Source: Actinomycetota bacterium (GTDB lineage: Bacteria; Actinomycetota; Thermoleophilia; Solirubrobacterales; 70-9). Taken from it: a stretch of DNA of 64,000 nt. Positions 35,785-54,352 of this stretch are shown here, piece by piece (within the stretch, counting starts at the first letter, position 1; each line of letters begins with the position of its first letter). The stretch is from contig JAFDWC010000002.1 in assembly GCA_018268655.1 (NCBI GenBank), positions 2,022 through 66,021 on the forward strand. Direction: 5' to 3'. The notes beneath the pieces were generated by a model, which was not told where the DNA came from, did not search any database, and saw only the letters and a list, made by a program, of their open reading frames with translations. The translations under genes and the position numbers were made by a program.

Positions 35785-35904
35785 CGCCGGCTCCTCGCCG
35801 CCCGACCCACACATCAGACCGCGACCTGCCCCACGGCCCTCTTCGAGCCAGCAGAAGAACCGCCAAAACCCCGTAATCCCGCTTCCCAAGCGGAATCCCG
35901 CGAA

Positions 35905-37050: not shown

Positions 37051-37097
37051 CGCGCCAGACAGGATTCGAACCTGTGACCTTCGGTTTCGTAGTCCGG
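37051..37097 (-). repeat. copy C of the tRNA-Arg 3' half (45/47 identical); candidate att site
   Basis: CGCGCCAGACAGGATTCGAACCTGTGACCTTCGGTTTCGTAGTCCGG versus 58562-58608. The flanking about 95 bp is about 80% identical to the copy B flank. Confidence 0.75.
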
Positions 37098-39327: not shown

Positions 39328-39341
39328 GGCGGAGTACAGGG

Positions 39342-40821: not shown

Positions 40822-41796
40822 TCAGCCGGCGGTCAACTGGTACTTGCGCACCTCGCCGGCGCCGAGCTCGCAGATCGCACCCTGCAAGGTCGCCTCGGCG
40901 TAGATGCTCCCGGGGTTGATCGCCAGGGTGCGACCGATCGAGACGGCGCCGCGGGACTCGTGGATGTGACCGTGCAGGGACAGCAGGGGCTGGTACTCCT
41001 CGATCGCTTCGCGCACGGCGGTGCTCCCGACGGGGACGGACGTAACCCCCGCGTTCCTTACCGAGAAGTCGTCGGTCAGCTCCGGCGCCGAGTCGAGGCC
41101 GCTGTCGTAGGGAGGAACGTGGATGTTGAAGACGGCGTTGCTCATGTCATCGATCTCCCCGGCGAGCCGCTGGATCTTCTCCGCCAGCTCCTCCTCGGAG
41201 CATTCGCGCGGGGTGTCCCATGGCGTCGGGTTCGACCAGCCGACGCTGAGCATCTGGTGGCGCTCGCTCAACGCCGTCACCTTGCCCTCGTCGGCCTCGA
41301 TATAGGGAGCCTCGGCGAGGACCTCGTCGACGACGAACTCGTCGTCGTTGCCTGGGGTGACGATCAGTCGCACCCCCGTGCTCTCCAGGCGCTCGGCTCC
41401 CAGCCGCATCCAGTCGCCGACCGTGTCGGCCATCGTCTGACTGAACCGTTCGGCGATCCGCTCCGGTTCCCGCTCCCACCGCTCGACCTCGTCCTCGCCG
41501 ACCAGAACCGGATAGGAGCCAGAGTTCTTCACCTCCTTCTCCAGCTCTTCAACCGCCCTCGAGTCGACGTAGGTCTTCTCCTCACCGCTCCACCGGCACG
41601 TCCACGAGTCGCCTCGCTGCACGATTGGGACCAGCGTCTTGCCGGTGCAGTCGCCGCCCATGATCAGGATGCTCGCTCCATAGGCACGGGCGGCCGACAG
41701 AAGCTTGCGATAGCAAACCTCGGAACCGTGGAGGTCGGTGGCGAAGAAGAGCGAGACCCTGGAACCATCCTCCTCCTCCCGTCGCTTTCTGAACAT
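40822..41796 (-). CDS. metallophosphoesterase
   Basis: [32 protein letters not shown] are the calcineurin-like phosphoesterase motif series. Confidence 0.75.
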
Positions 41797-41811: not shown

Positions 41812-43449
41812 CTACTCGACCGGAAGCTCGGAGTAGGCAGCCGAGATGTCGATGTGGTCATGGAACCGTCGGTACAGCCGGGCGGTGATGTAAACGAGCG
41901 CTGAGAACCCGAACAGGACGCCGAGGAAGATCAGCCCGTTCGAGCCGTTGACCCCGAGCTCATCGTGCGTCAAGGCCATGACGTCGACGAATATCACGAA
42001 GGCGACAAAGATCGCACCCGCGATGGTGATCACCGGCACACGGCCAATCCGGTGATCGGCCGCGCCGCCCTTGAACAGCAGTGGCCGCCGGAACGGGAAC
42101 ACGGCGCCGGCGAGGATCGTCACTCCGATCGCCGTGATGTTCATGATGAAGTAGCTGATCGTGTAGGACGCGAAGTTCGACCAGAAGGCGAAGGCGATCG
42201 AAGCCGGGATGGTGAGCAGCGTGTAGACCCCGATCGCGAACACCGGCGTGTGCGTGCGAGGGTTCACTTTCGCAAACGCCGATGGAAGGATCCGGTCCTG
42301 CGCCATGACCAGCGCGGCGCGGGTCGCCCCGAGGGCGCCGTTGGAGAAGATCGTCAGGCCCCAGGCGAAGAACATCACGAACCCGATCCAGACGAAGATC
42401 GCCGCCTTGCCGGCCACCGCGAACAGGAAGCCGAGGAACGGGGGGACCGGCAGTGGGTTGTTTTCGGCCCCGCTGAGGAACAGGTTTCCGCTCGCGTACA
42501 GGAAGTGCTGGCCGACCGTGTGGGTGATCAGGACGGCGATCAGCGCCAACAGACCGAAGGTGAAGACCTCGGCGCCGACCATCGCGTTGAGGTTGCGGCG
42601 GACGCTTTTGGCCTGCCTCACCTCGCCAGCCTGCATCGCGCTCCAGGCAGGGTAGATGAGGACGTAGGAGGCGATGATCGCGGCCAGTAGCGTCTGCCAG
42701 AGCGAGAAGCTCGTGTCGGTGCTGCCGCCGCTGCTCAGGGTTACCTGGTAGGCGTTTTCGGTCCCGAAGCTTGACATGAAGCTGTTGTAGTGGCTGACGA
42801 AGGTGTCGTGGGAGGTGAACAGCGTCGTAACCAGCAGGACCAGCAGACAGGCGCCCCCGACCCAGAAGCAGATCCGCTGGATCAGGGCGTACCACTTGAG
42901 GCCCTTGATGTTGATCGCGGCGGCGAAAGCGGTGCAGAAGAGGCAGGAAAAGAAGATGCCCCACTTGCCGGCGAACCAGGTGCCGACTTCGATCATCCAG
43001 TTCGCGTGGTAGATGCCACCGAGCAGAGCGAGGAATGGAGACATGATCACGGTCGCGAAGACGAACCCGTTGATGCCCATCGCGACCACCTGGGCGACGC
43101 AGGCGAAGGTGAAGGCGAACAGCGTCCCCACTGCGCCGCCGAAGACTCGGCTCTGGAATACGTAATCCCCTCCGGATCGCGGCATCGCCGCCGTGATCAG
43201 CGCATAGACGACAGCCTCGAGCGTGCAGAAGAAGCCACCGATCAGAAAGGCGAGCCACAGGCTCGCGCGCGGGTAGGTAACGGTGATGATCCCGAAGGTG
43301 AGCGCGCCGTTCACCACCAGGTTCATCGCGATGACGTTGTAGATCCACGCGTCGAGCTGGGAGAAATCCTTAACCAGTCCAGAGGATTTCCGGGCGTAGG
43401 TACCGCCGGAGCTTGCCGCGATCTGAGTCGATGCCGTGTTTGCCTCCAA
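41812..43449 (-). CDS. APC-family permease
   Basis: 12-TM-like. Start assigned to the TTG at 43449 because of an AAGGAG SD 9 nt upstream. The remaining 5' part of ORF 41812..43692 is not protein-like. Confidence 0.75.
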   Translation of the reverse strand: MEANTASTQIAASSGGTYARKSSGLVKDFSQLDAWIYNVIAMNLVVNGALTFGIITVTYPRASLWLAFLIGGFFCTLEAVVYALITAAMPRSGGDYVFQSRVFGGAVGTLFAFTFACVAQVVAMGINGFVFATVIMSPFLALLGGIYHANWMIEVGTWFAGKWGIFFSCLFCTAFAAAINIKGLKWYALIQRICFWVGGACLLVLLVTTLFTSHDTFVSHYNSFMSSFGTENAYQVTLSSGGSTDTSFSLWQTLLAAIIASYVLIYPAWSAMQAGEVRQAKSVRRNLNAMVGAEVFTFGLLALIAVLITHTVGQHFLYASGNLFLSGAENNPLPVPPFLGFLFAVAGKAAIFVWIGFVMFFAWGLTIFSNGALGATRAALVMAQDRILPSAFAKVNPRTHTPVFAIGVYTLLTIPASIAFAFWSNFASYTISYFIMNITAIGVTILAGAVFPFRRPLLFKGGAADHRIGRVPVITIAGAIFVAFVIFVDVMALTHDELGVNGSNGLIFLGVLFGFSALVYITARLYRRFHDHIDISAAYSELPVE

Positions 43450-43540: not shown

Positions 43541-44497
43541 CTAGTCGCTCTTTCCTTCTCGATGGGAAGGAGGGTCCTCACCGTTGCCGGAGCGAGGAGG
43601 CTTGTTGTAGTTGGCAAGCTCGATTTCCGCCAGCCGCACCAGCTCCCGGGTCGCAGGCGAGAGCTGGGCGCCGCGCTGCTGGACGAAGGCAAAGGTCTCG
43701 AATAGCGGCGGATCGAACGGCACCGCGCTCAGCACCTGCGGAAATGAGTTCGACTGCGCGATCGTCTCCAGCACATATGTGCCTCCGAGCCCCTGCGCGG
43801 CGAGGGAGATCGCGGCATCGAGCGTCTCGACCTCGATCGCCCCCTCCAGCGGCACGCCGGCGTCGCGGGCACGCTCGGCAAGCTGGCGCCGGGTCGGATC
43901 ACGGCTCCCGAAGTGGGCGTCGTAGAAGATCAGCCGCTGGGTCGCCAGCCGCTCGACCGACATCGGCTCCGAGGAGCCGGACCCCTCGAGCTCGACGTAG
44001 AGGAGATCGTCGGTCATCACCGGCCGCACCTCGAGCGCCTCGTCGTCGATCGGCAGCGTGATCAACCCCGCTTCCAGCTCGCCCGAGCGAATCATTTCGA
44101 CGACTTCGGCGCTGTTCTGGCCGATCACGCGAACGCCGACATCGGGGTACTGCGCGACGAACCCGGTCACGACCTCCTGCACCAGGTAGCGATAGGCGAG
44201 GCTGAAGGTGCCGAGGGAAGCGGTGCCGCTCTCGATCCCGCGTACGCTCGAGACTTCGGCCACGGCCGATTTGACGCCGGCGAGGATTTCCCGGGCCCGC
44301 GGCTCCAATGCCTTGCCGGCCTCGGTCAGCGACAGCCGTCGCGGTCCGCGGATGAACAGTTTCGCCCCGAGCTCCTCCTCCAGCCGGCGCACCTGGGCAG
44401 CGAGGGAGGGCTGCGCGATATAGCAGGCGTCGGCGGCGCTGCTGAAGGTGCGGTGTTCGCAGGCCGCCAGGAAGTACTGCAATTGTTGGAGGGTCAT
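43541..44497 (-). CDS. LysR family transcriptional regulator
   Basis: MTLQQLQYFLAACEHRTFSSAADACYIAQPSLAAQVRRLEEELG is a LysR HTH. Confidence 0.85.
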   Translation of the reverse strand: MTLQQLQYFLAACEHRTFSSAADACYIAQPSLAAQVRRLEEELGAKLFIRGPRRLSLTEAGKALEPRAREILAGVKSAVAEVSSVRGIESGTASLGTFSLAYRYLVQEVVTGFVAQYPDVGVRVIGQNSAEVVEMIRSGELEAGLITLPIDDEALEVRPVMTDDLLYVELEGSGSSEPMSVERLATQRLIFYDAHFGSRDPTRRQLAERARDAGVPLEGAIEVETLDAAISLAAQGLGGTYVLETIAQSNSFPQVLSAVPFDPPLFETFAFVQQRGAQLSPATRELVRLAEIELANYNKPPRSGNGEDPPSHREGKSD

Positions 44498-44523: not shown

Positions 44524-45270
44524 CTACTGCGCCAGATAGCCACCGTCGACCGGCAGGATCGAGCCGGTGATGAATGAGGCGGCGTCGGACGCGAGAAAGC
44601 AGATCGCCTCCGCCACCTCCCGCGGCTCACCGAGACGGCCCATCGGGTGAGCTTCCCGCATCGGGTCCGTGTACTCGTCGGGCAGCGCCGCCACCGCCTC
44701 GGTCCTGATCGTCCCCGGGGCCACCGCGTTGACGCGGATGTTCCGCGGTGCCACCTCGATCGCCAGGTGCTTGGTGATGCCGGACGCGACGAACTTGGCC
44801 GGCCCGTAGACGGCGTTTTCGGGCTGCCCGGCGATCCCGGAGATGGACGAGAGGCAGACGATCGAGCCGCCCTCCTCGCCCATCGCTTCGACCGCGTACT
44901 TGCAGGTCAGGAACATCCCGCGGCCGTCGATCGCCATCACCCGGTCCCATTCCTCCGGGGTGGTCTCTTCGATCTTGCCTAGGGGGATGATGCCGGCGTT
45001 GGCCACCAGCGAGTCGACGCCGCCGAAAGCTTCCACCGCAGCGGCGATGATCGTCCGCGCTTCCTCCGCATCGGAGACGTCGCCGAGGGCGGTGCGGACT
45101 TCGGTCCCGTCGGGGAGCGCGGCCGCCGCCGCCTCGAGCCCCGACGCGTCGACATCGTTGAGGACGAGGCGCGCGCCCTCGCGCGCGAAGACCTCTGCGC
45201 AGGCGCGTCCGATTCCCTTCGCGGCCCCGGTGATCACCACCGACTTGCCCTCCATCCGACCCGTGCTCAT
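44524..45270 (-). CDS. SDR family oxidoreductase
   Basis: From the ATG at 45270 (GGAGGG SD): VITGAAKGIGRA, ANAG, YGPAKFV. Confidence 0.85.
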   Translation of the reverse strand: MSTGRMEGKSVVITGAAKGIGRACAEVFAREGARLVLNDVDASGLEAAAAALPDGTEVRTALGDVSDAEEARTIIAAAVEAFGGVDSLVANAGIIPLGKIEETTPEEWDRVMAIDGRGMFLTCKYAVEAMGEEGGSIVCLSSISGIAGQPENAVYGPAKFVASGITKHLAIEVAPRNIRVNAVAPGTIRTEAVAALPDEYTDPMREAHPMGRLGEPREVAEAICFLASDAASFITGSILPVDGGYLAQ

Positions 45271-46406
45271 ATGCCCTCCTGTCTCGTGTTCAAGTCGTTG
45301 CTCCATCCACGGGCCGCAACCCGCCACTCCTCGACGACCTTGCCGTCACGCAGGAGGTGAAGGCGGTCGTGGAGATTCACCACCGGGCAGGCGTGATTCG
45401 GCACCACCCGGACCCGATCCCCTGGTCGCAGCGCGCACCCCGGCGAAGCGGCGGCGATCGCGTGCTCCTCGAAGAGCCTGCAAATCTCCACCTCGGGGTG
45501 ATCGAGGACGATGCCGAAAGCTGGCGAGCGCGGCGACGGACGCTCGGTGGTCAGCGCCTTGGAGCCGCAGTCGAGGATCAGCCGGCCCGGGGCCGGGCGC
45601 GAGACCACGGTCGCCAGGACGCTGAGAGCGCACTGCTCGAGCGCGGCGACGCCGAGCGCGACCTGGCTGGCATCGTTGAAGACGTAGTTGCCGGGGCGAA
45701 CCTCAAAGTGCTCCCGCCCCCCCGGCCGCAGCCTCGACACGGTGGGCGTGGTGCCGATGCTGAGCGCCGGCACCTCGACGCCCCGCTCGCGGAGAGCGGC
45801 GGCACTCACCTCCACTGCCGCGCGCTCGTCGGCCGCGATCCGCTCGAGCTCCGCATCGTCGGCGGCCTGGTAGGCGTGGCCGGCGAAGGTCATCAGGCCG
45901 GCGAACGGTGCGGCATCGACCTCAGTCACCACCGCGGCGACCGCGCCGGCCGCCGGCGCGCCCGACTCGCCCCCGCAGCGCCCGACACCGCAGTCAACCT
46001 CCCAGAGCCAGCCGATCCGGACCCCGGCGCCGCGGCAGGCGGCGTCGAGCGCCCGTACCTGCGCGACATCGTCGAGGGCAACCCGCACGCTCGTCCGGCG
46101 CGCCAGGGCCGCGAGGCGGTCGAGGCGCCAGCGCCCGACCGGCGGATAGGCAATGAGGACCGCGGGCGCGCCCGCCTCGGCAAAGGTCTCGGCCTCCCGC
46201 AGCGTCGCGGCGGTGACACCAACGGCGCCGTGCTCGAGCTGCCGCCGCACAAGCTCGGCCGTCTTGTGCGTCTTCGCGTGCGGCCAGAGGTCGGCCTCGG
46301 CGCGCGCCACGTGGCGCGCCATCCCCTCGAGGTTGGCGTCGAGAATCGCTTCGTCGACCAGCAGCGAAGGGGTGGCCAGCTCACGCGTGTCGGCCACGAA
46401 GCTCAT
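45267..46406 (-). CDS. D-TA/DSD1-family PLP enzyme (alanine-racemase-fold; D-threonine aldolase / D-serine or D-3-hydroxyaspartate dehydratase-like)
   Basis: From the ATG at 46406: TPSLLVDEAILDANL, and PHAKTHKT with the PLP lysine. The C-terminal beta-domain carries NHACPVVN. Confidence 0.7.
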   Translation of the reverse strand: MSFVADTRELATPSLLVDEAILDANLEGMARHVARAEADLWPHAKTHKTAELVRRQLEHGAVGVTAATLREAETFAEAGAPAVLIAYPPVGRWRLDRLAALARRTSVRVALDDVAQVRALDAACRGAGVRIGWLWEVDCGVGRCGGESGAPAAGAVAAVVTEVDAAPFAGLMTFAGHAYQAADDAELERIAADERAAVEVSAAALRERGVEVPALSIGTTPTVSRLRPGGREHFEVRPGNYVFNDASQVALGVAALEQCALSVLATVVSRPAPGRLILDCGSKALTTERPSPRSPAFGIVLDHPEVEICRLFEEHAIAAASPGCALRPGDRVRVVPNHACPVVNLHDRLHLLRDGKVVEEWRVAARGWSNDLNTRQEGI

Positions 46407-46431
46407 CGGGGCAAAGAGGAGGAGGGGCACC

Positions 46432-48138
46432 TCATCGCGGCGCCGCCGCGAGGAAGTCGAAGTCGCAGCCGTCATGGGCCTGGGTGACGTGCTCGGCGTA
46501 GAGTCTCGCGTAGCCACGCGCGGGGCCGGCTCCGCGGGTCTTACGCGCCGCCAGGCGGCGCGCGATCTCCCCCTCAGGGAGGAGCGCTTCGAGCCGGCCG
46601 CCCTCGACGTCGAGCTCGATCATGTCGCCGTCGCGGAGCGCCGCCAGGGGTCCGCCGACCGCGGCCTCGGGCGAGACGTGGAGGACAGCGGTCCCCGCGG
46701 CGGTCCCACTCATCCGCGAGTCGCTGACCCGCAGCATGTCGCGAACGCCGGCGCGCAGCATCTTCCGCGGCAGCGGCAGATTTCCCCACTCGGGCATCCC
46801 CGGGCCGCCGACGGGACCGCCGTGCTTGAGCACGAGGACGCTCTCCGGCGTCACCTCGAGCGCGTCGTCCTCCAGCCGCCGGAGCATTTCCTCACGGCTC
46901 TCGAAGACGATGGCGGGACCGCGGTGCCTGAGCAGCTCCGGGCTGGCGACGCTGCGCTTGATCACCGCTCCGTCGGGTGCCAGGTTGCCGAACACCGCGG
47001 CGATCCCGCCCACCTTCTCGAGCGGGTCCTCGAGCGAGTGGATGATCCCTTCCCGTCCGTGGTCGGGTTCGGCGGCAGCGATCACCTCGGCCACCGTCTG
47101 CCCTCCCACCGTGGGAGCGTCGAGGTTCAGGAGCGGCGCGAGGACGCCCAACACAGCCGGCACGCCGCCGGCGAAGAAGAGGTCCTCCATCAGCGCCCGC
47201 CCTGCCGGCTTGACGTCGACGATTGCCGGGGTCTCGCGGGAGATTCGGTCGATCGTCCGCAGGTCGAGCGAGGAGCCGGCGCGGCGCGCGAGCGCGAGCA
47301 GGTGCATGACGACGTTGGTCGAGCCGGCCAGAGCGGCGAGCATCCTCACCCCGTTTTCGAAGGCTTGGTCGGTGAGCAGGTCGCGGACCGGCACCCCCTG
47401 CCGCGCCAGGGCAACCGCGGTCCGCCCAGTCTGGCGGGAGATCTCGCCGCGCCGCGAATCAACCGCCGGCGTCGCCGCGGCGCCGGGCTCGGTCAGGCCC
47501 ATCGCCTCGACCACGCAGGCGAGGGTGGAGGCGGTGCCCGCGGTCGAGCAGTGGCCGGGGCTGCGCTCGATGTGCTCCTCGAGCTCGCGCCATTCCGCCG
47601 GCGATATCTCGCCAGCGCGGTAGCGATCGTAGTTGCGGCCGGCGTCGGTGCCGGAGCCGACCTCCTCGCCGCGGAAGCGGCCGCCGAGCCCGGGGCCGCC
47701 GGGCAGGATGATCGCCGGTACGCCGGCGCTCGCCGCTCCCATCAGCATCGCCGGGATCGTCTCGTCGCACGAAGCGATCAGCACCACCGCGTCGAGCGGA
47801 TAGATCGAGAGCGTCTGCTCGACCTCGACGGCAAGCAGGTTGCGGTGCATGAAGGTCGCCCCGGCGGGTACGGCGAGGTCGGCCCCGAGCGACATCGAGG
47901 GGAACTCGAAGGCGAGCCCGCCAGCTTGCTGGATGCCCTCCTTCACCCAGCGGGCAAGGGCGCCGAAGTGGAGATGGCAGCGCGCCAGCTCGCTCCAGTT
48001 GGTGCAGACGCCGATCTTCGGGACGTCGACGAAGTCCTCGTCGCGGAGGCCCCTCACCTTCATCGCGCTGCGGCGGATGAACGACTCGACGTCGTCGCCC
48101 TGAAACCAGCAGGCGCTGCGCAGCCCGCGCTCGCTCAA
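46432..48138 (-). CDS. IlvD/Edd family dehydratase (dihydroxy-acid/aldonate dehydratase)
   Basis: LRSACWFQGDD..., CDETIPAML, GHCSTAGTASTL, SDSRMSGT. The TTG start at 48138 overlaps the upstream stop (TTGA). Confidence 0.85.
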   Translation of the reverse strand: MSERGLRSACWFQGDDVESFIRRSAMKVRGLRDEDFVDVPKIGVCTNWSELARCHLHFGALARWVKEGIQQAGGLAFEFPSMSLGADLAVPAGATFMHRNLLAVEVEQTLSIYPLDAVVLIASCDETIPAMLMGAASAGVPAIILPGGPGLGGRFRGEEVGSGTDAGRNYDRYRAGEISPAEWRELEEHIERSPGHCSTAGTASTLACVVEAMGLTEPGAAATPAVDSRRGEISRQTGRTAVALARQGVPVRDLLTDQAFENGVRMLAALAGSTNVVMHLLALARRAGSSLDLRTIDRISRETPAIVDVKPAGRALMEDLFFAGGVPAVLGVLAPLLNLDAPTVGGQTVAEVIAAAEPDHGREGIIHSLEDPLEKVGGIAAVFGNLAPDGAVIKRSVASPELLRHRGPAIVFESREEMLRRLEDDALEVTPESVLVLKHGGPVGGPGMPEWGNLPLPRKMLRAGVRDMLRVSDSRMSGTAAGTAVLHVSPEAAVGGPLAALRDGDMIELDVEGGRLEALLPEGEIARRLAARKTRGAGPARGYARLYAEHVTQAHDGCDFDFLAAAPR

Positions 48139-49187
48139 AGCGCTTCCTCGGCGAGCGGAGCCGCCGCTCCGGCGCCCCAGATGTCGGCGAGCATGTAGCC
48201 GCCGCCGACCGGGTCCTCGGGGTCGCGGCCCAGCTGGTGGACGCCAGTGATCCAGGCCCGCCCGCTGATCTCGGTCACCACCGCTGGGTAGGGACCGATC
48301 GTCGTCTGCTCCAGGATGCGGGCGCTGAAGGTGGTTGCGAGGATGCTCTCGTTGACGTAGGAAACGCCGAGAGCGAGCTCGCCGCGGGCATGCGCCACCG
48401 CCAGCTTCGCCGCGGTCCCGGTCCCGCAGGGCGAGCGGTCCGAGCGACCGGGGCTGACGATGTTTGCGCTGCGCCCGTCGCCGCCGTTGCGGGCGGGGCC
48501 ATGGAAGTGGGTGAAGATAATCGTGTCGCCCGCCTCGCGCTCGGGATGGGAGACCGGCACCTGCTCGGCAGCCGCCCGCTTGATCTGCTCGCCGATGCGC
48601 CCCAGCTCGGGGGCCTCGTCCGGGACCAGGGAGAAGCCGAGCGAGGTCGCGTCGACGAGTGCGAAGAAGGCTCCGCCCCAAGCGATGTCGGCGACCACGG
48701 TGCCAAGCCCCGGCACCTCGATCGCGCGGTCGAGCTCGGTGACGAAGGAGGGAACGTTGGCGAAGGAGACGCTGCGGCAGCGGCCCTCCTCGCATCGAGC
48801 GAGCGCGCGGACGATTCCGGCTGGCGTCTCCAGCGTTACCTCGGTCACCGGTTCGCGCATCGGCAGGGTGCCCGTCTCGAGCAGGACCGTGACCGAGCAG
48901 ATCAGGTTCGTCCCCGACATCGGGAAGTAATTGGAGGCGCCCATGATCACGATCCCGGCATCGGCGCGTGGGTCGGCCGACGGGAAGACGAGGTCGGCGG
49001 CCAATGAGGGCAGCCCGCGCGGCTCGTGGAGGAGGAAGCGGCGCAGCTCGTCTCCCCGAACCTCGAGGTGCTCGGCCTTCTCCGCCATCGTCGTCCCCGG
49101 AACGTCCAGCACGCCTCCGAGCACGATCCGACTCGGCTCACCCTCGGCGTGGGCGTCGACAGCGTGGATGAGGTTGCTCAGCTGCAT
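48135..49187 (-). CDS. proline racemase / hydroxyproline epimerase-dehydratase family protein (atypical Ser/Cys catalytic pair)
   Basis: IHAVDAHAEGEPSRIV, PMSGTN at the first acid/base position, DRSPCGTGTAAK at the second. Confidence 0.85.
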   Translation of the reverse strand: MQLSNLIHAVDAHAEGEPSRIVLGGVLDVPGTTMAEKAEHLEVRGDELRRFLLHEPRGLPSLAADLVFPSADPRADAGIVIMGASNYFPMSGTNLICSVTVLLETGTLPMREPVTEVTLETPAGIVRALARCEEGRCRSVSFANVPSFVTELDRAIEVPGLGTVVADIAWGGAFFALVDATSLGFSLVPDEAPELGRIGEQIKRAAAEQVPVSHPEREAGDTIIFTHFHGPARNGGDGRSANIVSPGRSDRSPCGTGTAAKLAVAHARGELALGVSYVNESILATTFSARILEQTTIGPYPAVVTEISGRAWITGVHQLGRDPEDPVGGGYMLADIWGAGAAAPLAEEAL

Positions 49188-49188
49188 C

Positions 49189-49995
49189 TCAGGACACGAA
49201 GGCGATTGCCCGGCCCGGCGCTCCGGTGCCGTTCTTGATCTTCAAGGGCAGCATCAGAAAGGTGGCGCCGCGGGTAGGCAGCTCGCGCAGCCCTGTCAAC
49301 CCCTCGATGAAGATCATCCGCCGGCCGAGGCCCGCCAGGTGGGCGGGGGCGCCGTCCTCGGTCGCTCCGACACTCGGCGCTTCGGTGCCGAGCGTGACGA
49401 TCCCGCGCTGGTCGAGCATCTCGATGGCGGCGGCGTCGGGAGCCGGCCACCCCGGCCCCTTGCCCTCGACGACCGGCGCGCGACCGTAGGCGTCACCGTC
49501 GGCCCCCGGCCCGTAGAGATCGGCCCAGTCGCTGCGGAAGAGGACGATCTCGCTGGGCTCGAGGCGACCGTGCTCGGCCTCGAAAGCCTCGATCGTGGCC
49601 GGCGTGATCGCCGGGCTGACGCCGTCCTGTACCGGCCCCTCGCGGAGGTGCCTCACGTCGATGACCACCGCCGCGCCGAATAGCCCCTCGAGTGGCAGCT
49701 GCTCGACCGTGACCGTTCCCGCCCCGGCGGCGTTCGGCAGGCCCGAATCGGGCTCGGGGATGAAGTGAGCGGGGGCGTCGAGATGGGTGCCTGTGTGCTC
49801 GTCGATCGCCAGCCAGCGTGTCTGGTAGGCACCGAGCCTTGCGCTGCGCGGGTCGCGGCCGCCAACATCGGCGTAGTAGTTGTAGACGTGATGCTGGTAG
49901 GGAAGATGGGTCGGCCAGGAGCACGGCAGCGACTCGGCCAGCTCGACCGTCAGGTCGATGATCCGCCTCCCGGCTCCCGGCTCGACCCAGCTCAT
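49189..49995 (-). CDS. cyclase family protein (metal-dependent hydrolase)
   Basis: From the ATG at 49995: DEHTGTHLDAPAHF is the canonical cyclase/kynurenine-formamidase motif. Confidence 0.75.
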   Translation of the reverse strand: MSWVEPGAGRRIIDLTVELAESLPCSWPTHLPYQHHVYNYYADVGGRDPRSARLGAYQTRWLAIDEHTGTHLDAPAHFIPEPDSGLPNAAGAGTVTVEQLPLEGLFGAAVVIDVRHLREGPVQDGVSPAITPATIEAFEAEHGRLEPSEIVLFRSDWADLYGPGADGDAYGRAPVVEGKGPGWPAPDAAAIEMLDQRGIVTLGTEAPSVGATEDGAPAHLAGLGRRMIFIEGLTGLRELPTRGATFLMLPLKIKNGTGAPGRAIAFVS

Positions 49996-50906
49996 CAGCT
50001 CGGCGCCCCCGCAACCGCCAGCAGACCGAGCCCGTCCAGCGCCTGCTCGAGCGCTTCGCGGCGATCGCCGCCCAGCGACAGGAGCGGCGAGCGCAGCGGC
50101 CCGATCGGCCTTCCGACCATCTCCATCGCCGCCTTGACCGCGTTGGCGTAGCCGCCGCTGACCATCACCTGCATCAGCGGCCGCAGGCGCTCCCACGCCG
50201 CCAGCGCGCCCTCGGCGTCGCCTTCAGCCAGCAGACGGTAGACCCCGACGCAGGCCTTGCCGGCGAAGTTCGGCGTGCCGACGATCGCACCGATCGCTCC
50301 CTCGACGAGGGCGGGCAGGAACAGCGTGTCCCAGCCGTTGAAGACGCGGACCGTGTCGGCGAAATCGGTGGTGAGGACGCCGATCTGCGAGAGGTCGCCG
50401 GTCGACTCCTTGACGTAGCGGATCGACGGCACGCGCTCGCAGAACCTGGCGAGCCGCTCGGGGTCGACGTTGGCACCGACGGCGATCGGGAGGTTGTAGA
50501 AGATGATCGGGAGGTCGGTGACCTCCGCGATACCGGCGTAGTAAGCCGTGACCTCCTCGTCGTCGAGCGGCTCGTAGTAGGGGCTGACCGCGAGGATCGC
50601 GGCAGCCGAGACCGACTCGGCGTGACGGGCCATCTCCCGTGCGTCGCGGATCGAGCAGGAGCCGACGTGGGGGATCAGGGCGACTCGGCCGTCAGCCGTC
50701 TCGGCGACGACCTCGGTGACCCGCATCCGCTCGGCTGTGGTCAGCGAGGAGCACTCGCCGGTGGAGCCGCCGACCACCAGGCCGGCGACGCCGTCGGCGA
50801 TCACCTCGTCGGCGAAGGAGCGCAGTCGCGCCTCGTCCACTTCCTGGTTCTGGTCGAAGGGAGTGGCGAGAGCGCAGTGGACGCCGGCCAGCTCATCGGT
50901 GCTCAT
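49995..50906 (-). CDS. dihydrodipicolinate synthase/N-acetylneuraminate lyase (DapA) family protein
   Basis: GVHCALATPF, GLVVGGSTGE, IFYNLP, YVKEST with the Schiff-base Lys. AAGGAA SD. Confidence 0.85.
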   Translation of the reverse strand: MSTDELAGVHCALATPFDQNQEVDEARLRSFADEVIADGVAGLVVGGSTGECSSLTTAERMRVTEVVAETADGRVALIPHVGSCSIRDAREMARHAESVSAAAILAVSPYYEPLDDEEVTAYYAGIAEVTDLPIIFYNLPIAVGANVDPERLARFCERVPSIRYVKESTGDLSQIGVLTTDFADTVRVFNGWDTLFLPALVEGAIGAIVGTPNFAGKACVGVYRLLAEGDAEGALAAWERLRPLMQVMVSGGYANAVKAAMEMVGRPIGPLRSPLLSLGGDRREALEQALDGLGLLAVAGAPS

Positions 50907-51949: not shown

Positions 51950-53167
51950 TCAGCAGGCCGCCTTCATCTCGATCCGGTCGAGGTCCCCAGCCCAGGCCGC
52001 CTCGAGCAGGGCCTCGGCGTCTACCGGACCGACCGGCCGGGGGTTGTTGTCGATGAGACGGGTGATCCCGACAGCCTGCGCGGCCATCCGCGGCAGGTCG
52101 CCGCGGTCGACGCCGATCTCGCGCAGGGAGCCTGGGAGCCCTGCCGCCAGGCCGATCTCTCGCACCTTGGCCGATGCGGCCTCGGGGTCTGATCCGACAC
52201 CGAGCGCCTCGCCGACGTGGCGGAGCTTCTCCTCCGCCGCCGGAGCGTTGAAGCGCATGACGAACGGCAGCAGCAATCCGACGCCGAGGCCGTGCGGGGT
52301 CTTGCTCGCGGCGCCGAGCGGATACTGCAGCGCGTGAGCGGCCGCCGTGCCTGCGGTGCCGAACGCGAGGCCGGCGAGGAGGCTTCCAGAAAGCATCCCG
52401 GCACGCCCGCTCGACCGGTCCTCGAGGGCATCGAGGAACGAATCCGAAATCTGGCCGATCGCCCTCAGCGCGAACCCGTCGGTCAGCTGCCCGGAGCCGA
52501 CGAAGACCCGCTCGCCCATCTCCTCCCAGCTCGAGCGACCGACGGCGGTGTACGCCTCGATCGCATGCGCGAGGGCGTCGATCCCCGCGTAAGCGGTGAC
52601 CGAGCGCGGGGCTCCGAAACAGAGGTCGGGATCACAGATGGCGGCCCGCGGGATCAGCCAGGGGCTGGAGATCCCGACCTTGAGCTCGCGCCCGGGGTCG
52701 GTGAGGACGGCGACCGGGGTCACCTCCGAACCGGTGCCGCCGGTGGTGGGCACCGCGACCACCGGCAATGATGGCCCCGGGACCGCGTTCTCGCCGTAGT
52801 GCTCGGCGAGCGGAGCGTCGTGGGCGAGCCCGAGCGAGACCAGCTTGGCGACGTCAATGCAGCTGCCGCCGCCGAGGCCGACGACGACGTCCGGAGCGAT
52901 CGAACGCGCTGCGGCGATTGCATCTTCGACGCCCGCCAGCGGCAGCTCCGGCTGTGCAGAGTCCAGTAGCTCGTAGTCGAGGCCGGCGGCGCGCAGGCTC
53001 GCCTCGACCGCGGCGCCCTGCGATGCCGAGGCGAGGAAGGAGTCGGTGCAGACGAGCACCTTCCCCTCACCGGCGAGCGAGCGAACCGTCGCCCCGAGAG
53101 TGCGAACGGCGCCGCTGCCAAGGCGGATCGAGGCGGGAGCGCGCAGGAGTGCCGGCGCGGCGGTCAT
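51950..53167 (-). CDS. iron-containing (group III) alcohol dehydrogenase
   Basis: GGGSCIDVAK, VAVPTTGGTGSE, His-rich metal-site region IDALAHAIEAY. Confidence 0.85.
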   Translation of the reverse strand: MTAAPALLRAPASIRLGSGAVRTLGATVRSLAGEGKVLVCTDSFLASASQGAAVEASLRAAGLDYELLDSAQPELPLAGVEDAIAAARSIAPDVVVGLGGGSCIDVAKLVSLGLAHDAPLAEHYGENAVPGPSLPVVAVPTTGGTGSEVTPVAVLTDPGRELKVGISSPWLIPRAAICDPDLCFGAPRSVTAYAGIDALAHAIEAYTAVGRSSWEEMGERVFVGSGQLTDGFALRAIGQISDSFLDALEDRSSGRAGMLSGSLLAGLAFGTAGTAAAHALQYPLGAASKTPHGLGVGLLLPFVMRFNAPAAEEKLRHVGEALGVGSDPEAASAKVREIGLAAGLPGSLREIGVDRGDLPRMAAQAVGITRLIDNNPRPVGPVDAEALLEAAWAGDLDRIEMKAAC

Positions 53168-54234
53168 TCGGCGCCCGCCATCTTCTCGTCACGGAGGCGC
53201 AAGAGCTCTTGCCACAGCGCCGCAGGCAGCGGGATTCCCGCCCGCAGCCGCCGCTCGCGCTCACTCCGCATCCGGTCCCCGGGGATCAGCACCGAGTCGT
53301 ACCCCGGAGCCGTCGGCGCCACGCGCAGCTCCTCCAGATAAGCGGAGAGATAGCTCGCGGGGCTCGGCGCGCCCACCACCGCCGGGTCGATGACGATGAC
53401 CGCGTCTCCCTTGGTGACCGGGTGATGGCCGTCGAGCGTCCCCCGCACCTCGACCCCCAGGGCGGTCCGGCTGAGCAGCGCGACCAGCAGCTCTATTGCC
53501 AGCGAGAGCCCGTAGCCCTTGCCGCCCCCGAACGGCGAGATCGCCCCGTCCTGGGCCCGCTCGGGGACCGTCGTCGGATTGCCGGCGGCGTCGATGCAGC
53601 GGCCCGGCGGTAGCGATTCGCCACGCTGGGCGCTCGCGATCACCTCCCCGGCGGAGATCGACCCTGTGGACATATCGAGAACGAACGGCTCCGGATCCGC
53701 GGGTACGCCGACTCCGATCGGGTTGGTCCCGAGCAGCGCGGTCCTGCCGCCGGTCGGATGGACCAGCGCCTCGCTCGTGGTCATCACGATCCCGACCATT
53801 CCCCGTTCGCAGATCCGCTCCAGGTAAGGAGCGAGCATCCCGATGTGGCTTGCCCGCCGCACTCCGGCCATGGCGACGCCGGTCCGTCCGGCGCGGTCGC
53901 TCAACAACTCGATCGCCGCCTCGATGGCTACCGTGCCGAATCCGTCGTGGCCGTCGATCGCCAGGAAGGCATCGCTGGTCCAGCTCGTCTGCAGCTCGGC
54001 CTCGGGATCCAGCACCCCGGACTCAATCCGCTCGATCAGGGTCGGAAGCCGTTGCATTCCGTGCGAAGGCCGGCCGCGAAGATCCCCCTCAACCAGGTGG
54101 CTCGTCTGCAGCGCCGCAGCGCTCCGGCCCACCCCGTGCTTGGCGAGGATCGCTTCACCGGCCTGCTGAGCCTCATCGTGACCGACCGAGATCAGCTTGG
54201 GGCCGTCGTTGTCTTGGGTCGCCGGCGGGGCCAT
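53164..54234 (-). CDS. Ldh_2 family (malate/L-lactate dehydrogenase type 2) oxidoreductase
   Basis: GRPSHGMQRLPTLIERI, SHIGMLAPY, LGTNPIGVGVP, GGGKGYGLSLAIELL are typical of the Ldh_2 family. That family includes Pyr2C/Pip2C reductases. Confidence 0.8.
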   Translation of the reverse strand: MAPPATQDNDGPKLISVGHDEAQQAGEAILAKHGVGRSAAALQTSHLVEGDLRGRPSHGMQRLPTLIERIESGVLDPEAELQTSWTSDAFLAIDGHDGFGTVAIEAAIELLSDRAGRTGVAMAGVRRASHIGMLAPYLERICERGMVGIVMTTSEALVHPTGGRTALLGTNPIGVGVPADPEPFVLDMSTGSISAGEVIASAQRGESLPPGRCIDAAGNPTTVPERAQDGAISPFGGGKGYGLSLAIELLVALLSRTALGVEVRGTLDGHHPVTKGDAVIVIDPAVVGAPSPASYLSAYLEELRVAPTAPGYDSVLIPGDRMRSERERRLRAGIPLPAALWQELLRLRDEKMAGAE

Positions 54235-54352
54235 CGATCAGCCGTCAAGCAAACTCGCAATCGCGGCCGCTGGCAATAAGCGATCGACTTTGCCGCGCGA
54301 AGGCAAACGCGTGTGGTCGAACCTCCCGCCATCGAGGACGATTCCCCGACGG

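What the first reader, a model, noticed from the sequence alone, without database searches (positions are those of the whole stretch)
44524..50906. Island segment 2b: six-gene, fully overlapped operon mixing hydroxyproline-type and sugar-acid-type enzymes
The operon order is DapA-family, cyclase-family hydrolase, proline-racemase-family, IlvD/Edd dehydratase, D-TA/DSD1 PLP enzyme, SDR. Most junctions overlap by 1-4 nt (TGATG, TTGA, ATGA).

IlvD/Edd dehydratases and DHDPS-family 2-keto-3-deoxy-acid dehydratases form the non-phosphorylative pentonate (Weimberg-type) route. Proline-racemase-family enzymes and DHDPS-family Pyr4H2C deaminases form the hydroxyproline route. Both routes converge on 2-oxoglutarate semialdehyde, and an ALDH sits 4 kb away.

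A single operon holding both enzyme sets, plus a D-amino-acid aldolase/dehydratase and a cyclase-type hydrolase (possible lactonase/amidase surrogate), is not a pathway I know. It may process a hydroxylated D-amino or imino acid, or an amino-sugar acid.
Basis: partly seen in the sequence, partly recalled or inferred. Interest (0 to 1): 0.6.

Follow-up and report, generated by a model that had tools for sequence, protein, structure and literature searches.

The report
Rare hydroxy-amino-acid operon, atypical IlvD dehydratase
Six tightly packed genes on an acquired genomic island probably break down a hydroxylated amino or imino acid, and one of them is an iron-sulfur dehydratase of an uncharacterised subgroup with an altered metal site, so both the pathway and that enzyme's reaction are still unknown.

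Summary
Six co-directional minus-strand genes (44524-50906) encode DHDPS-family, cyclase/isatin-hydrolase-type, proline-racemase-family, IlvD/Edd, DSD1-type PLP and SDR proteins. They are joined by 1-4 nt overlaps or 1-25 nt gaps.

The operon lies in a 21.5-kb island at tRNA-Arg. LysR, APC permease, metallophosphoesterase, ALDH and GMC genes follow it. Fe-ADH, Ldh_2 and RidA genes precede it.

- **Racemase homologue:** it carries the Ser/Asn/Cys dyad of the characterised Ser/Cys 4-(and 3-)hydroxyproline 2-epimerases.
- **PLP enzyme:** it has the His-x-Cys metal motif of D-serine and D-threo-3-hydroxyaspartate dehydratases, not the His-x-Asp of D-threonine aldolases.
- **IlvD homologue:** it is not a canonical sugar-acid dehydratase. 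It reads Cys-Asp-Glu where the family has Cys-Asp-Lys. It has Ala where a Mg-ligand Glu sits, and it lacks the C-terminal His.
- **IlvD clade:** it falls in one clade whose seven examined loci all hold a DHDPS gene and an amino-acid transporter. Among 80 canonical relatives the counts are 1 and 0.

Only one related operon was found, on a metagenome contig. No characterised orthologous operon was found.

My best reading, at moderate confidence, is catabolism of a hydroxylated D/L-amino or imino acid (or an amino-sugar acid) by 2-epimerisation and beta-elimination.

An earlier scan note (e1-692592) reports an "altered IlvD" in a hydroxyproline island on other DNA. I did not check it.

The parts
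49995..50906 (-). DHDPS/NAL-family Schiff-base enzyme (303 aa), first gene of the operon; not a lysine-biosynthetic DapA
   Evidence: Pfam DHDPS 228.6 bits. NCBIfam dapA scores 183.9, below the 206.15 cut-off, and no equivalog is reached. The best solved relatives score only 150-160 bits. The best match in 400 sampled genomes of the phylum is 37% identical.
49189..49995 (-). Cyclase-family (PF04199) metal-dependent amidohydrolase (268 aa), isatin-hydrolase/kynurenine-formamidase type
   Evidence: Pfam Cyclase 102.8 bits. The best solved relatives are isatin hydrolases 5nnb and 4j0n. The sequence keeps HTGTHLDAPAH. The C-terminal part is 77% identical to the 5' partial gene of L004.
48135..49187 (-). 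Proline-racemase-superfamily enzyme (350 aa) with a Ser91/Asn94/Cys254 dyad; predicted hydroxyproline 2-epimerase
   Evidence: Pfam 377.4 bits. The dyad was read from the alignment. The Ser/Cys type was characterised as 4HypE, promiscuous for 3HypE, in PMC4113996. Solved relatives are 4k7g and 4lb0.
46432..48138 (-). Atypical IlvD/Edd Fe-S dehydratase (568 aa) of the Cys-Asp-Glu/Asp clade
   Evidence: Pfam ILVD_EDD_N plus ILV_EDD_C. Alignment to 8ej0 and 5j83 shows Cys54, Cys124, Cys197 and Ser477 kept, Glu126 in place of the carbamylated Lys, and Ala86 in place of the Mg-ligand Glu. There is no C-terminal His. The clade is supported at SH-aLRT 100.
45267..46406 (-). Fold-type-III PLP enzyme of the DSD1 family (379 aa; alternative GTG start at 46430), dehydratase type
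   Evidence: Pfam Ala_racemase_N plus D-ser_dehydrat. It reads PNHACP, the His-x-Cys of D-Ser dehydratase 3anu and D-threo-3-hydroxyaspartate dehydratase 3wqc, not the His-x-Asp of aldolases 4v15, 7dib and 6qkb. His-x-Cys occurs in 76 of 81 relatives.
44524..45270 (-). Classical SDR oxidoreductase (248 aa), last catabolic gene of the operon; absent at this position in L004
   Evidence: Pfam adh_short_C2 239.5 bits. NCBIfam PRK07231 'glucose 1-dehydrogenase' subfamily scores 237 against a 215 cut-off. Orthologues 68-70% identical occur in another actinobacterial family.
43541..44497 (-). LysR-type regulator, 26 nt downstream of the SDR on the same strand
   Evidence: Pfam HTH_1 plus LysR_substrate. 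It is 80% identical to the LysR that follows the PLP gene in L004.
41812..43449 (-). APC-family amino-acid permease (likely TTG start at 43449 behind AAGGAG)
   Evidence: Pfam AA_permease_2. The start was read from the sequence. It is 51% identical to the L004 permease.
40822..41796 (-). Metallophosphoesterase-fold protein (324 aa), paired with the permease here and in L004
   Evidence: Weak Pfam Metallophos_2 hit. Atlas feature and structure matches point to metallophosphoesterase clusters, TM 0.95. It is 56% identical to the L004 gene.
39342..40796 (-). Aldehyde dehydrogenase of the amino-aldehyde (aminobutyraldehyde/betaine-aldehyde) type
   Evidence: Pfam Aldedh 546.5 bits. NCBIfam PRK13473 scores 655.1 against a 615 cut-off. 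It is 55% identical to the ALDH beside the GMC gene in L005.
37714..39579 (-). GMC-family flavin oxidoreductase (longest ORF; the true start is probably near 39340)
   Evidence: Pfam GMC_oxred_N and GMC_oxred_C.
51950..54234 (-). Fe-ADH (51950-53167) and Ldh_2/MLD2-family dehydrogenase (53164-54234), upstream on the same strand; possible imine (Pyr2C) reductase module
   Evidence: Pfam. MLD2 members reduce proline ketimine according to PMC4113996. A racemase-homologue plus Fe-ADH plus ALDH trio recurs in L006 and L090.
54197..54772 (+). RidA-family (Ribonuc_L-PSP) protein, divergent from Ldh_2
   Evidence: Pfam PF01042 96.6 bits.
37041..37084 (.). 44-nt copy of the tRNA-Arg 3' part: left end of the 21.5-kb island that holds the operon (right end is tRNA-Arg at 58562-58635)
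   Evidence: Direct-repeat family D2 has copies at 26088, 35895, 37041 and 58552, 84-98% identical to the reference copy at 26088. tRNA-Arg(acg) was found. The racemase homologue was not found in 24 same-genus genomes.

Best explanation
This is a horizontally acquired, LysR-controlled catabolic operon for a hydroxylated amino or imino acid. The likely substrates are hydroxyproline isomers or dihydroxyproline, or a 2-amino-2-deoxy sugar acid.

Proposed flow:
1. The substrate enters through the APC amino-acid permease.
2. The Ser/Cys proline-racemase-family enzyme inverts C2 from L to D (2S to 2R).
3. Two D/(2R)-specific beta-eliminating enzymes remove the 3-hydroxyl. These are the atypical Fe-S IlvD/Edd enzyme and the Zn/PLP DSD1-type dehydratase. 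The product is a 2-imino or 2-keto-3-deoxy acid.
4. The DHDPS-family enzyme forms a Schiff base with that 2-keto acid. It then deaminates or dehydrates it (Pyr4H2C-deaminase-like) or cleaves it (aldolase-like) to an aldehyde.
5. The nearby ALDH oxidises the aldehyde.
6. The cyclase-type amidohydrolase and the SDR act upstream, on a lactam, lactone or amide precursor and on a hydroxyl group. Ldh_2 and RidA nearby handle cyclic-imine and enamine intermediates.

Shown: gene order, family membership, the catalytic-residue patterns, the island context, and the clade-specific gene neighbourhood of the IlvD homologue.

Inferred: the substrate class, the order of steps, and every enzymatic activity.
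For: (1) Co-expression design. Five tight junctions join the six genes, with no internal terminator-like site on the coding strand.

(2) A conserved core. The only related locus, L004, keeps cyclase, racemase homologue, IlvD, PLP enzyme and LysR in the same order at 68-80% amino-acid identity. Its DHDPS, permease and phosphoesterase genes are rearranged onto the other strand. This argues that selection acts on the set.

(3) The racemase homologue has the Ser91/Asn94/Cys254 dyad. That dyad belongs to the characterised Ser/Cys 4HypE enzymes, which are promiscuous for 3HypE (PMC4113996). DHDPS, ALDH and MLD2 (Ldh_2) are the genome-neighbourhood partners of the hydroxyproline pathways in that paper, and all three are on the island.

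(4) The PLP enzyme has the His-x-Cys motif of the D-specific dehydratases.

(5) The IlvD homologue belongs to a clade (27 rows, SH-aLRT 100) with a rewired metal site. All seven examined loci of this clade hold a DHDPS gene and an amino-acid-type transporter: five SBP_bac_3 ABC systems and two APC permeases. Most also hold an ALDH and an SDR. Several hold imine-reductase families (OCD, DapB-like, Ldh_2), a racemase or epimerase (proline-racemase family, Ala-racemase-like, MR_MLE) or a DAO.

(6) Among 80 loci of canonical Cys-Asp-Lys relatives, DHDPS is a neighbour in 1 and SBP_bac_3 in 0.

(7) Established stereochemistry: the known IlvD/Edd substrates are all (2R), which is the configuration of D-amino acids. 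This fits an L-to-D epimerase encoded directly upstream.

(8) The ALDH is an amino-aldehyde type and a RidA gene lies nearby. Both fit nitrogen-bearing intermediates.
Against: - No enzyme was assayed, and the substrate is not identified.
- Only two instances of the operon exist (window and L004), so conservation statistics are thin.
- The next relatives of the PLP enzyme (at most 59% identical, 80 loci) and of the cyclase sit in unrelated contexts.
- The DHDPS partners across the IlvD-clade loci are only 32-49% identical to one another, apart from two closely related pairs of loci (71% and 85%). The association therefore holds at family level, and the substrates may differ between loci.
- The IlvD homologue still sits among sugar-acid-type dehydratases in sequence (about 50% identical to 8ej0). 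SDR plus lactonase-like hydrolase plus IlvD plus DHDPS plus ALDH is formally a complete Weimberg or Dahms set.
- PLP enzymes cannot process secondary amines such as hydroxyproline in the usual way. The racemase homologue and the PLP enzyme therefore cannot share a cyclic substrate.
- Glu for carbamyl-Lys may simply mimic the carbamate without changing the chemistry.
Confidence: 0.45

Rival explanations
1. Mosaic regulon. The operon strings together separate short pathways that met by island assembly: a hydroxyproline module (epimerase plus DHDPS-type Pyr4H2C deaminase plus ALDH, using a D-amino-acid dehydrogenase encoded elsewhere); a stand-alone D-serine/D-threonine dehydratase; and a sugar-acid module (SDR, lactonase-like cyclase, IlvD). 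There is no shared intermediate beyond, at most, 2-oxoglutarate semialdehyde.
For: - Each gene's next-closest relatives live in different contexts.
- The window looks like a fusion of an L005-like set (DHDPS, racemase homologue, APC permease, GMC, ALDH) and an L004-like set.
- The SDR is absent from L004.
- The genome holds six full-length DAO-family genes elsewhere that could supply the missing oxidase.
- A DSD1-type dehydratase alone is a complete pathway for D-serine.
Against: - The cyclase, racemase homologue, IlvD, PLP enzyme and LysR order survives at only 68-80% protein identity in L004, while other genes moved.
- The junctions suggest translational coupling.
- The IlvD clade's 7 of 7 link to DHDPS and amino-acid transporters, and its lack of sugar transporters, argue against a plain sugar module.
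Confidence: 0.3
2. Amino-sugar-acid route, a sub-variant of the best explanation. The substrate is a 2-amino-2-deoxy-aldonate such as D-glucosaminate, or its sugar or lactam precursor. The SDR oxidises the amino sugar. The cyclase-type hydrolase opens the lactone or lactam. The IlvD homologue and/or the DSD1 enzyme eliminate the 3-OH (and ammonia) to give a 2-keto-3-deoxy-aldonate. The DHDPS-family enzyme cleaves or dehydrates that product, and the ALDH finishes.
For: - SDR plus lactonase-type hydrolase (cyclase here, PTE in L174 and L209) plus IlvD plus DHDPS plus ALDH recur together with amino-acid transporters.
- The IlvD clade is nested among sugar-acid-like dehydratases, with changes exactly at the site that binds the substrate's C2 hydroxyl and carboxylate through Mg (PMC5770437).
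- D-glucosaminate is a (2R) beta-hydroxy alpha-amino acid, which suits a DSD1-type dehydratase.
- Relatives of the racemase homologue sit with LacI, sugar-type ABC, RbsD/FucU and GFO genes.
Against: - It gives no role to a proline-racemase-family enzyme, whose known substrates are all cyclic imino acids.
- The two dehydratases would be redundant.
- No amino-sugar kinase, deacetylase or sugar transporter is present.
Confidence: 0.15
3. Ordinary non-phosphorylative pentose/pentonate (Weimberg or Dahms) operon, with a hydroxyproline epimerase and a D-amino-acid dehydratase as passengers.
For: - NCBIfam places the IlvD homologue in PRK06131 (713.9 bits). The L-arabinonate dehydratase model scores 662.9.
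- Solved relatives include L-arabinonate dehydratase 5j83.
- The SDR falls in a 'glucose 1-dehydrogenase' subfamily.
- IlvD/Edd plus a DHDPS-family partner is the known Weimberg/Dahms pairing.
Against: - Three hallmarks of characterised sugar-acid dehydratases are missing: the carbamylated Lys, the Mg-ligand Glu and the C-terminal His (PMC5770437, PMC11316719).
- The L-arabinonate dehydratase model scores below its 882-bit cut-off.
- The transporter is an amino-acid permease, and there is no sugar transporter.
- The ALDH is an amino-aldehyde type.
Confidence: 0.1

Closest known systems
Bacterial L-hydroxyproline gene clusters (Lhp/Hyp: 4-Hyp 2-epimerase, D-Hyp dehydrogenase, DHDPS-type Pyr4H2C deaminase, 2-oxoglutarate-semialdehyde dehydrogenase; t3Hyp dehydratase plus OCD/MLD2 Pyr2C reductase)
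   Same: A Ser/Cys proline-racemase-superfamily enzyme of the characterised 4HypE/3HypE type sits with a DHDPS-family gene, an ALDH and an MLD2 (Ldh_2) gene, an amino-acid transporter and a transcription regulator (PMC4113996, PMC5144071).
   Different: The island has no D-hydroxyproline (DAAO-type) dehydrogenase. The ALDH is an amino-aldehyde type. Four extra enzymes (atypical IlvD/Edd, DSD1-type dehydratase, cyclase-type hydrolase, SDR) have no place in any published Hyp pathway. The DHDPS gene matches no curated model.
Weimberg/Dahms non-phosphorylative pentonate pathways (aldose dehydrogenase, lactonase, IlvD/Edd pentonate dehydratase, DHDPS-family 2-keto-3-deoxy-pentonate dehydratase or aldolase, aldehyde dehydrogenase)
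   Same: The same five protein families are present, in one transcription direction. The IlvD homologue is about 50% identical to solved sugar-acid dehydratases.
   Different: The IlvD homologue lacks the Cys-Asp-Lys(KCX) motif, the Mg-ligand Glu and the C-terminal His that define the characterised sugar-acid dehydratases. The transporters are amino-acid types. The lactonase role would fall to a cyclase/isatin-hydrolase-type amidohydrolase.
DSD1-type D-serine dehydratase and D-threo-3-hydroxyaspartate dehydratase (fold-type III PLP, Zn-dependent)
   Same: It has the same two-domain architecture, the PLP lysine context (PHAKTHK) and the His-x-Cys metal motif.
   Different: It is well below 50% identical to any solved member, and its overall best score is to D-threonine aldolases. 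Its substrate is unknown. Its relatives in Solirubrobacterales sit with an FGGY kinase, ALDH, EamA and an APC permease.
[quoted passage not shown]
   Same: This is an analogy only. It is an iron-dependent hydro-lyase of a 'sugar/organic acid' superfamily, recruited into hydroxyproline gene clusters to dehydrate a 3-hydroxy imino acid to Pyr2C (PMC5144071). The novel reading proposes the same for the IlvD clade.
   Different: It belongs to a different superfamily. No activity data exist for the IlvD clade.

Membership tests
IlvD/Edd superfamily (general) | N- and C-terminal IlvD/Edd domains, three Fe-S cluster cysteines and the catalytic serine | tested here: met
   Pfam ILVD_EDD_N 309.3 bits and ILV_EDD_C 200.6 bits. 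Cys54, Cys124, Cys197 and Ser477 align with the cluster ligands and the Ser480/490 base of 5j83 and 5oyn (PMC5770437).
IlvD/Edd superfamily (general) | PROSITE motif Cys-Asp-Lys, with the Lys carbamylated as a Mg ligand ('fully conserved') | tested here: not met
   It reads Cys124-Asp125-Glu126. The motif definition and the carbamylated Lys are described in PMC5770437.
Sugar-acid dehydratase (SADHT) subfamily of IlvD/Edd (L-arabinonate, D-xylonate and gluconate dehydratases) | Mg-ligand Glu (Glu91 in RlArDHT, Glu92 in CcXyDHT) | tested here: not met
   Ala86 aligns with that Glu. The column is Ala in 27 of 27 clade members and Glu in 92 of 92 Cys-Asp-Lys relatives.
Sugar-acid dehydratase (SADHT) subfamily of IlvD/Edd | C-terminal histidine as the last residue, reaching into the neighbouring active site | tested here: not met
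   The protein ends ...FLAAAPR. Only 1 of 27 clade members ends in His. The feature is described in PMC11316719.
Sugar-acid dehydratase (SADHT) subfamily of IlvD/Edd | Curated model score (NCBIfam L-arabinonate dehydratase PRK13016) | tested here: not met
   It scores 662.9 bits against a cut-off of 882.
Proline racemase superfamily, Ser/Cys 4-hydroxyproline 2-epimerase type (Zhao et al. 2014, cluster 9) | Catalytic Ser (positioned by Asn at +3) on one face and Cys on the other | tested here: met
   PMSGTN (Ser91, Asn94) and SPCGTG (Cys254). Compare Ser93/Cys of B9JQV3, PDB 4lb0.
Proline racemase superfamily, Ser/Cys 4-hydroxyproline 2-epimerase type | Genome neighbourhood of DAAO plus DHDPS plus ALDH | tested here: inconclusive
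   DHDPS and ALDH are present. No DAO-family gene lies on the island, but six lie elsewhere in the 79%-complete genome.
[quoted passage not shown] | Thr in place of the second catalytic Cys | tested here: not met
   The position is Cys254, not Thr. The NCBIfam T3LHypDht model scores 346.3 against a 550 cut-off.
D-threonine aldolase / 3-hydroxy-D-aspartate aldolase (DSD1-family aldolases) | His-x-Asp divalent-metal motif near the C-terminus | tested here: not met
   The query reads HAC where 4v15, 7dib and 6qkb read HVD or HCD. The BhcC model scores 166.7 against a 690 cut-off.
DSD1-type D-serine / D-threo-3-hydroxyaspartate dehydratases | Fold-type III PLP domain plus the D-ser_dehydrat domain, with a His-x-Cys metal motif | tested here: met
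   Both domains are found by Pfam. PNHACP aligns with HAC of 3anu and 3wqc.
4-hydroxy-tetrahydrodipicolinate synthase (true DapA) | Curated equivalog score | tested here: not met
   TIGR00674 scores 183.9 against a 206.15 cut-off. A better DHDPS-family gene lies elsewhere in the genome, on contig C302, at 255.9 bits.
Cyclase family PF04199 hydrolases (kynurenine formamidase / isatin hydrolase) | HxGTHxDxPxH metal-binding motif | tested here: met
   HTGTHLDAPAH is present in the translation. The motif definition comes from my own knowledge of the family. The arylformamidase equivalog scores 33.4 against a 223 cut-off, so it is not a kynurenine formamidase orthologue.
Any of the above: enzymatic activity | Measured substrate turnover | not testable with these tools

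The most novel reading that the evidence does not exclude
The Cys-Asp-Glu/Asp clade of IlvD/Edd enzymes is a new kind of Fe-S dehydratase. It acts on (2R)-2-amino or 2-imino 3-hydroxy acids, such as D-3-hydroxyproline, 3,4-dihydroxyproline or 2-amino-2-deoxy-aldonates, rather than on 2,3-dihydroxy acids. Coupled to an L-to-D epimerase or racemase and a DHDPS-family enzyme, it would give an oxidase-independent entry into Pyr2C/Pyr4H2C or 2-keto-3-deoxy acids. That would be a previously undescribed catabolic route for hydroxylated D/L-amino acids. It would also be the first known fate for cis-3-hydroxy-D-proline, which accumulated in Pseudomonas aeruginosa cultures fed trans-3-hydroxy-L-proline.
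Probability: 0.25. Interest if true: 0.8.

Novelty: new variant of a known kind. Interest (0 to 1): 0.62.

Why it matters
If the reading holds, the locus gives two testable leads.

First, it points to an uncharacterised subfamily of the industrially studied IlvD/Edd dehydratases that breaks the family's 'fully conserved' Cys-Asp-Lys signature and a second Mg ligand. This subfamily is always encoded next to a DHDPS-family gene and an amino-acid transporter, which suggests a new substrate class.

Second, it points to a route for hydroxylated amino or imino acids that bypasses the flavin D-hydroxyproline dehydrogenase.

Both leads can be tested directly with recombinant proteins and a small substrate library. 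They would add reactions to hydroxyproline and D-amino-acid metabolism and improve annotation of thousands of 'dihydroxy-acid dehydratase' and 'L-arabonate dehydrase' calls. If instead the operon is a mosaic of ordinary modules, its value is limited to correct annotation.

Tried and rejected
**Looking for an orthologous operon of known function**
- 80 genome loci around relatives of the PLP enzyme (at most 59% identical) contained no IlvD or racemase-homologue neighbour.
- 80 metagenome loci around IlvD relatives (at most 52% identical, all Cys-Asp-Lys) contained no racemase-homologue or PLP-enzyme neighbour.
- Protein searches with the racemase homologue, IlvD and the cyclase found only one close set, L004.

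**Contexts that gave no functional hint**
- Cyclase relatives (45-50% identical) in one actinobacterial family sit among housekeeping-type genes (MoeA, a Lar_N-like gene, KARI).
- The DHDPS gene has no relative above 37% identity in 400 sampled genomes of the phylum.

**Literature**
- Searches for IlvD together with hydroxyproline or glucosaminate found no paper linking them.

**Expression and habitat**
- No RNA holder was listed. Only small-share DNA holders appeared, and I did not lay them. No habitat or expression statement is made.

**Readings considered and rejected**
- The DHDPS gene as lysine-biosynthetic DapA: it scores below the equivalog cut-off and a better copy lies elsewhere.
- The PLP enzyme as D-threonine aldolase: it has the His-x-Cys motif.
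- The ALDH as a recognised 2-oxoglutarate-semialdehyde dehydrogenase.

**Not attempted**
- Structure prediction and complex prediction. No claim here depends on them.

**Caveats on data**
- The careful tree search did not finish. The quick IQ-TREE tree was used instead.
- One row (G159) of the phylum sample is an unpublished genome. It contributes only one of the 29 Cys-Asp-Lys rows.

Full report
**Observation**

The window is about 70% G+C. Between 44524 and 50906, six minus-strand ORFs have the third-position G+C bias of real genes (0.81-0.91).

Start-codon analysis gives the following junctions:
- DHDPS/cyclase share 1 nt (TGATG).
- Cyclase/racemase homologue are 1 nt apart.
- Racemase homologue/IlvD overlap by 4 nt (TTGA, with a TTG start that alignment to solved enzymes from residue 4 supports).
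- IlvD/PLP enzyme are 1 or 25 nt apart.
- PLP enzyme/SDR overlap by 4 nt (ATGA).

No terminator-like site lies on the coding strand inside the operon. 'Fully overlapped' is slightly generous.

**Setting**

The six genes sit inside a longer one-directional block. Upstream are Ldh_2, Fe-ADH and a 254-aa nucleotidyltransferase-like gene. Downstream, after a 26-nt gap, come LysR, an APC amino-acid permease, a metallophosphoesterase-fold protein, an aldehyde dehydrogenase and a GMC flavoenzyme. A RidA gene diverges from Ldh_2.

Four copies of a 44-nt 3' part of tRNA-Arg lie at 26088, 35895, 37041 and in the tRNA itself at 58552. They mark tandem islands, and the operon lies in the 21.5-kb unit between 37.08 and 58.55 kb. 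The genome is a 3.37-Mb, 79%-complete assembly. The racemase homologue was not found in 24 same-genus genomes. Close relatives of the DHDPS and cyclase genes, and Cys-Asp-Glu relatives of the IlvD gene, were not found in the sampled genomes of the family or phylum. The block is therefore an acquired accessory island.

**The individual enzymes**

*Racemase homologue.* It has Ser91 (with Asn94) and Cys254 at the two catalytic positions. Zhao et al. (eLife 2014, PMC4113996) solved and assayed exactly this Ser/Cys type (B9JQV3, PDB 4lb0). It is a 4-hydroxyproline 2-epimerase that is promiscuous for 3-hydroxyproline 2-epimerisation. [quoted passage not shown] Of the 120 closest homologues, 74 are Ser/Asn/Cys, one is Ser/Ser/Cys and 45 are Ser/Thr. 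This gene is therefore a known kind, not a new dyad.

*PLP enzyme.* Its best overall scores are to D-threonine aldolases. At the C-terminal metal site, however, it reads PNHACP. That is the His-x-Cys of chicken D-serine dehydratase (3anu) and D-threo-3-hydroxyaspartate dehydratase (3wqc). The three aldolases (4v15, 7dib, 6qkb) read His-x-Asp. Seventy-six of 81 relatives share His-x-Cys. It is best read as a D-specific beta-hydroxy-amino-acid dehydratase.

*Cyclase-family protein.* It keeps the HxGTHxDxPxH metal motif. It is closest to isatin hydrolases among solved structures, so it is an amidohydrolase rather than a polyketide cyclase.

*DHDPS-family protein.* It reaches no curated model and is only distantly related to any solved member.

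*ALDH.* It passes the cut-off of the aminobutyraldehyde-dehydrogenase subfamily and falls far below that of 2-oxoglutarate-semialdehyde dehydrogenase.

**The IlvD/Edd gene is the surprise**

Aligned to the solved sugar-acid dehydratases 8ej0 and 5j83, it keeps the three cluster cysteines and the catalytic serine. Three other features differ:
- It reads Cys-Asp-Glu where the family signature is Cys-Asp-Lys. The literature calls that motif fully conserved, and its Lys is carbamylated and ligates Mg (PMC5770437).
- Ala86 replaces the Mg-ligand Glu91/92.
- It ends in ...AAAPR, without the C-terminal His that is 'fully conserved' in sugar-acid dehydratases and reaches into the neighbouring active site (PMC11316719).

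These changes are not private to this gene:
- The 27 closest homologues with a readable motif all have Cys-Asp-Glu or Cys-Asp-Asp. They form one side of a branch with SH-aLRT 100 in a quick maximum-likelihood tree.
- They differ from 92 Cys-Asp-Lys relatives at about a dozen near-invariant columns. Several of these lie next to catalytic residues: His55 after the first cluster Cys, and Ser474 three residues before the catalytic Ser.
- In a library clustered at 50% identity, 99 of 110 representatives with a readable motif are Cys-Asp-Lys and only 4 are Cys-Asp-Glu/Asp.
- In 400 sampled genomes of the same phylum, the 29 best matches whose loci I read showed 28 Cys-Asp-Lys motifs and one with no readable motif. 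One of those rows comes from the unpublished genome G159.

**Comparative context**

Only one related operon was found. JGI metagenome contig L004 carries cyclase (partial, 77%), racemase homologue (73%), IlvD (79%), PLP enzyme (68%) and LysR (80%) in the same order. On the other strand it carries DHDPS (43%), permease (51%) and phosphoesterase (56%). It has no SDR at the corresponding place. The core order has therefore survived substantial divergence while other genes moved.

The other five Cys-Asp-Glu/Asp loci I could read are L173, L174, L208, L209 and L210. All hold a DHDPS gene and an SBP_bac_3 amino-acid ABC transporter. Other genes recur less evenly:
- ALDH, at least three loci
- SDR, four loci
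- PTE-type lactonases, two loci
- OCD, two loci
- DapB-like reductases, two loci
- GntR regulators, three loci
- an alanine-racemase-like PLP gene directly after IlvD, one locus
- DAO plus an MR_MLE-family gene, one locus

Counting the window and L004, that is 7 of 7 for DHDPS and 7 of 7 for an amino-acid-type transporter. Among 80 loci of canonical Cys-Asp-Lys relatives (median length 12 kb), a DHDPS neighbour occurs once and SBP_bac_3, OCD and PTE never. The DHDPS partners are only 32-49% identical to each other, apart from two closely related pairs of loci. The link is at family level, and the substrates may differ between loci.

Relatives of the racemase homologue (58-63% identical) sit in several contexts:
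- with DAO (L088);
- with AcnX plus DAO plus a second racemase homologue (L092);
- with DHDPS, APC permease, GMC and two ALDH genes (L005);
- with Fe-ADH and two ALDH genes beside sugar-type ABC and LacI genes (L006, L090).

The window looks like a union of the L004-type and L005-type sets.

**Interpretation**

It has the right epimerase type, plus DHDPS, ALDH and MLD2, which are the published genome-neighbourhood partners. The flavin D-hydroxyproline dehydrogenase, however, is missing from the island.

The sugar-acid half is weakened. The IlvD homologue fails three defining features of sugar-acid dehydratases, the transporter is an amino-acid permease and the ALDH is an amino-aldehyde type.

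Several observations tie the genes together:
- An L-to-D epimerase is followed directly by two beta-eliminating enzymes.
- The precedents for both are (2R)/D-specific. Known IlvD/Edd substrates are all 2R, and DSD1 enzymes are D-specific.
- A Schiff-base enzyme for 2-keto acids is present.
- Imine- and enamine-handling genes (Ldh_2, RidA) lie nearby.

I therefore commit, at 0.45, to catabolism of a hydroxylated D/L-amino or imino acid by 2-epimerisation, beta-elimination to a 2-imino/2-keto-3-deoxy acid, DHDPS-type processing and aldehyde oxidation. The cyclase-type hydrolase and the SDR would act on a precursor. A 2-amino-2-deoxy-aldonate is a sub-variant (0.15). All activities and the substrate are inferred.

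The main rival (0.30) is a mosaic of separate short pathways co-transcribed after island assembly. A plain Weimberg/Dahms operon is least likely (0.10).

**Novelty**

No paper found links IlvD/Edd enzymes with hydroxyproline or amino-acid substrates. The classification papers I read treat the carbamylated Lys as universal.

Two earlier notes of this scan report IlvD-type genes in a Chloroflexota hydroxyproline-type island ('altered IlvD-type dehydratase', e1-692592) and beside aconitase X (e1-4810973). I could not check whether those belong to the same clade, so they are leads, not support.

I rate the finding as a new variant of a known kind: an amino-acid catabolic operon of the hydroxyproline type. 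It includes a candidate new enzyme subfamily. Interest is 0.62.

Noticed in passing
window 26088-26131, 35895-35938, 37041-37084, 58552-58595: Four copies of a 44-nt 3' part of tRNA-Arg(acg), 84-98% identical to the reference copy at 26088. They imply at least three tandem insertions at one tRNA gene. I noticed no integrase gene in the 37-58.5 kb unit among the ORFs I scanned.
   Followed up: partly
L006:730-4532 and L090:10001-15328 (Bacillota genomes): A recurrent cluster holds a Ser/Cys or Ser/Thr proline-racemase-family gene, Fe-ADH and one or two ALDH genes, next to sugar-type ABC transporter and LacI genes. The window also has Fe-ADH and ALDH near its racemase homologue. The substrate is unknown, possibly an alcohol precursor of an imino acid.
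   Followed up: partly
L008:5771-14338, L009:7250-12652: In Solirubrobacterales, His-x-Cys DSD1-type enzymes (53-54% identical to the window's) sit with an FGGY kinase, ALDH (L008), EamA and an APC permease (L008). This is an unassigned D-hydroxy-amino-acid module.
   Followed up: partly
L208:9001-11945: In one Cys-Asp-Glu IlvD locus, the IlvD gene ends on the first base (10791) of an alanine-racemase-like (Ala_racemase_N plus Ala_racemase_C) gene. This parallels the fold-type-III PLP gene that follows IlvD in the window and in L004.
   Followed up: no
G000 contig C11:34238-35908 (same genome, outside the window): A second IlvD/Edd homologue, 52% identical to the island copy. I did not read its motif or context.
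   Followed up: no
window 51036-51800: A 254-aa ORF separates Fe-ADH from the operon. It has only a weak match to an uncharacterised nucleotidyltransferase family (PF14907, E 0.0017, below cut-off). A stem-loop (CCTGCC...GGCAGG) follows it, ahead of the operon's probable promoter region.
   Followed up: partly
L196, L202 (actinobacterial family f22): Cyclase-family homologues (46-50% identical) lie close to a Lar_N-like (lactate-racemase N-terminal domain) gene, adjacent in L202, among housekeeping-type genes. Orthologues of the window's SDR at 68-70% identity lie a few kb away in four other loci of that family (L198, L200, L202, L205).
   Followed up: partly
L092:372-7332: A metagenome contig carries split aconitase X, a DAO-family gene, a second racemase homologue, a Fer2/FAD subunit gene and a 62%-identical relative of the window's racemase homologue. 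It looks like a typical multi-isomer hydroxyproline cluster.
   Followed up: no
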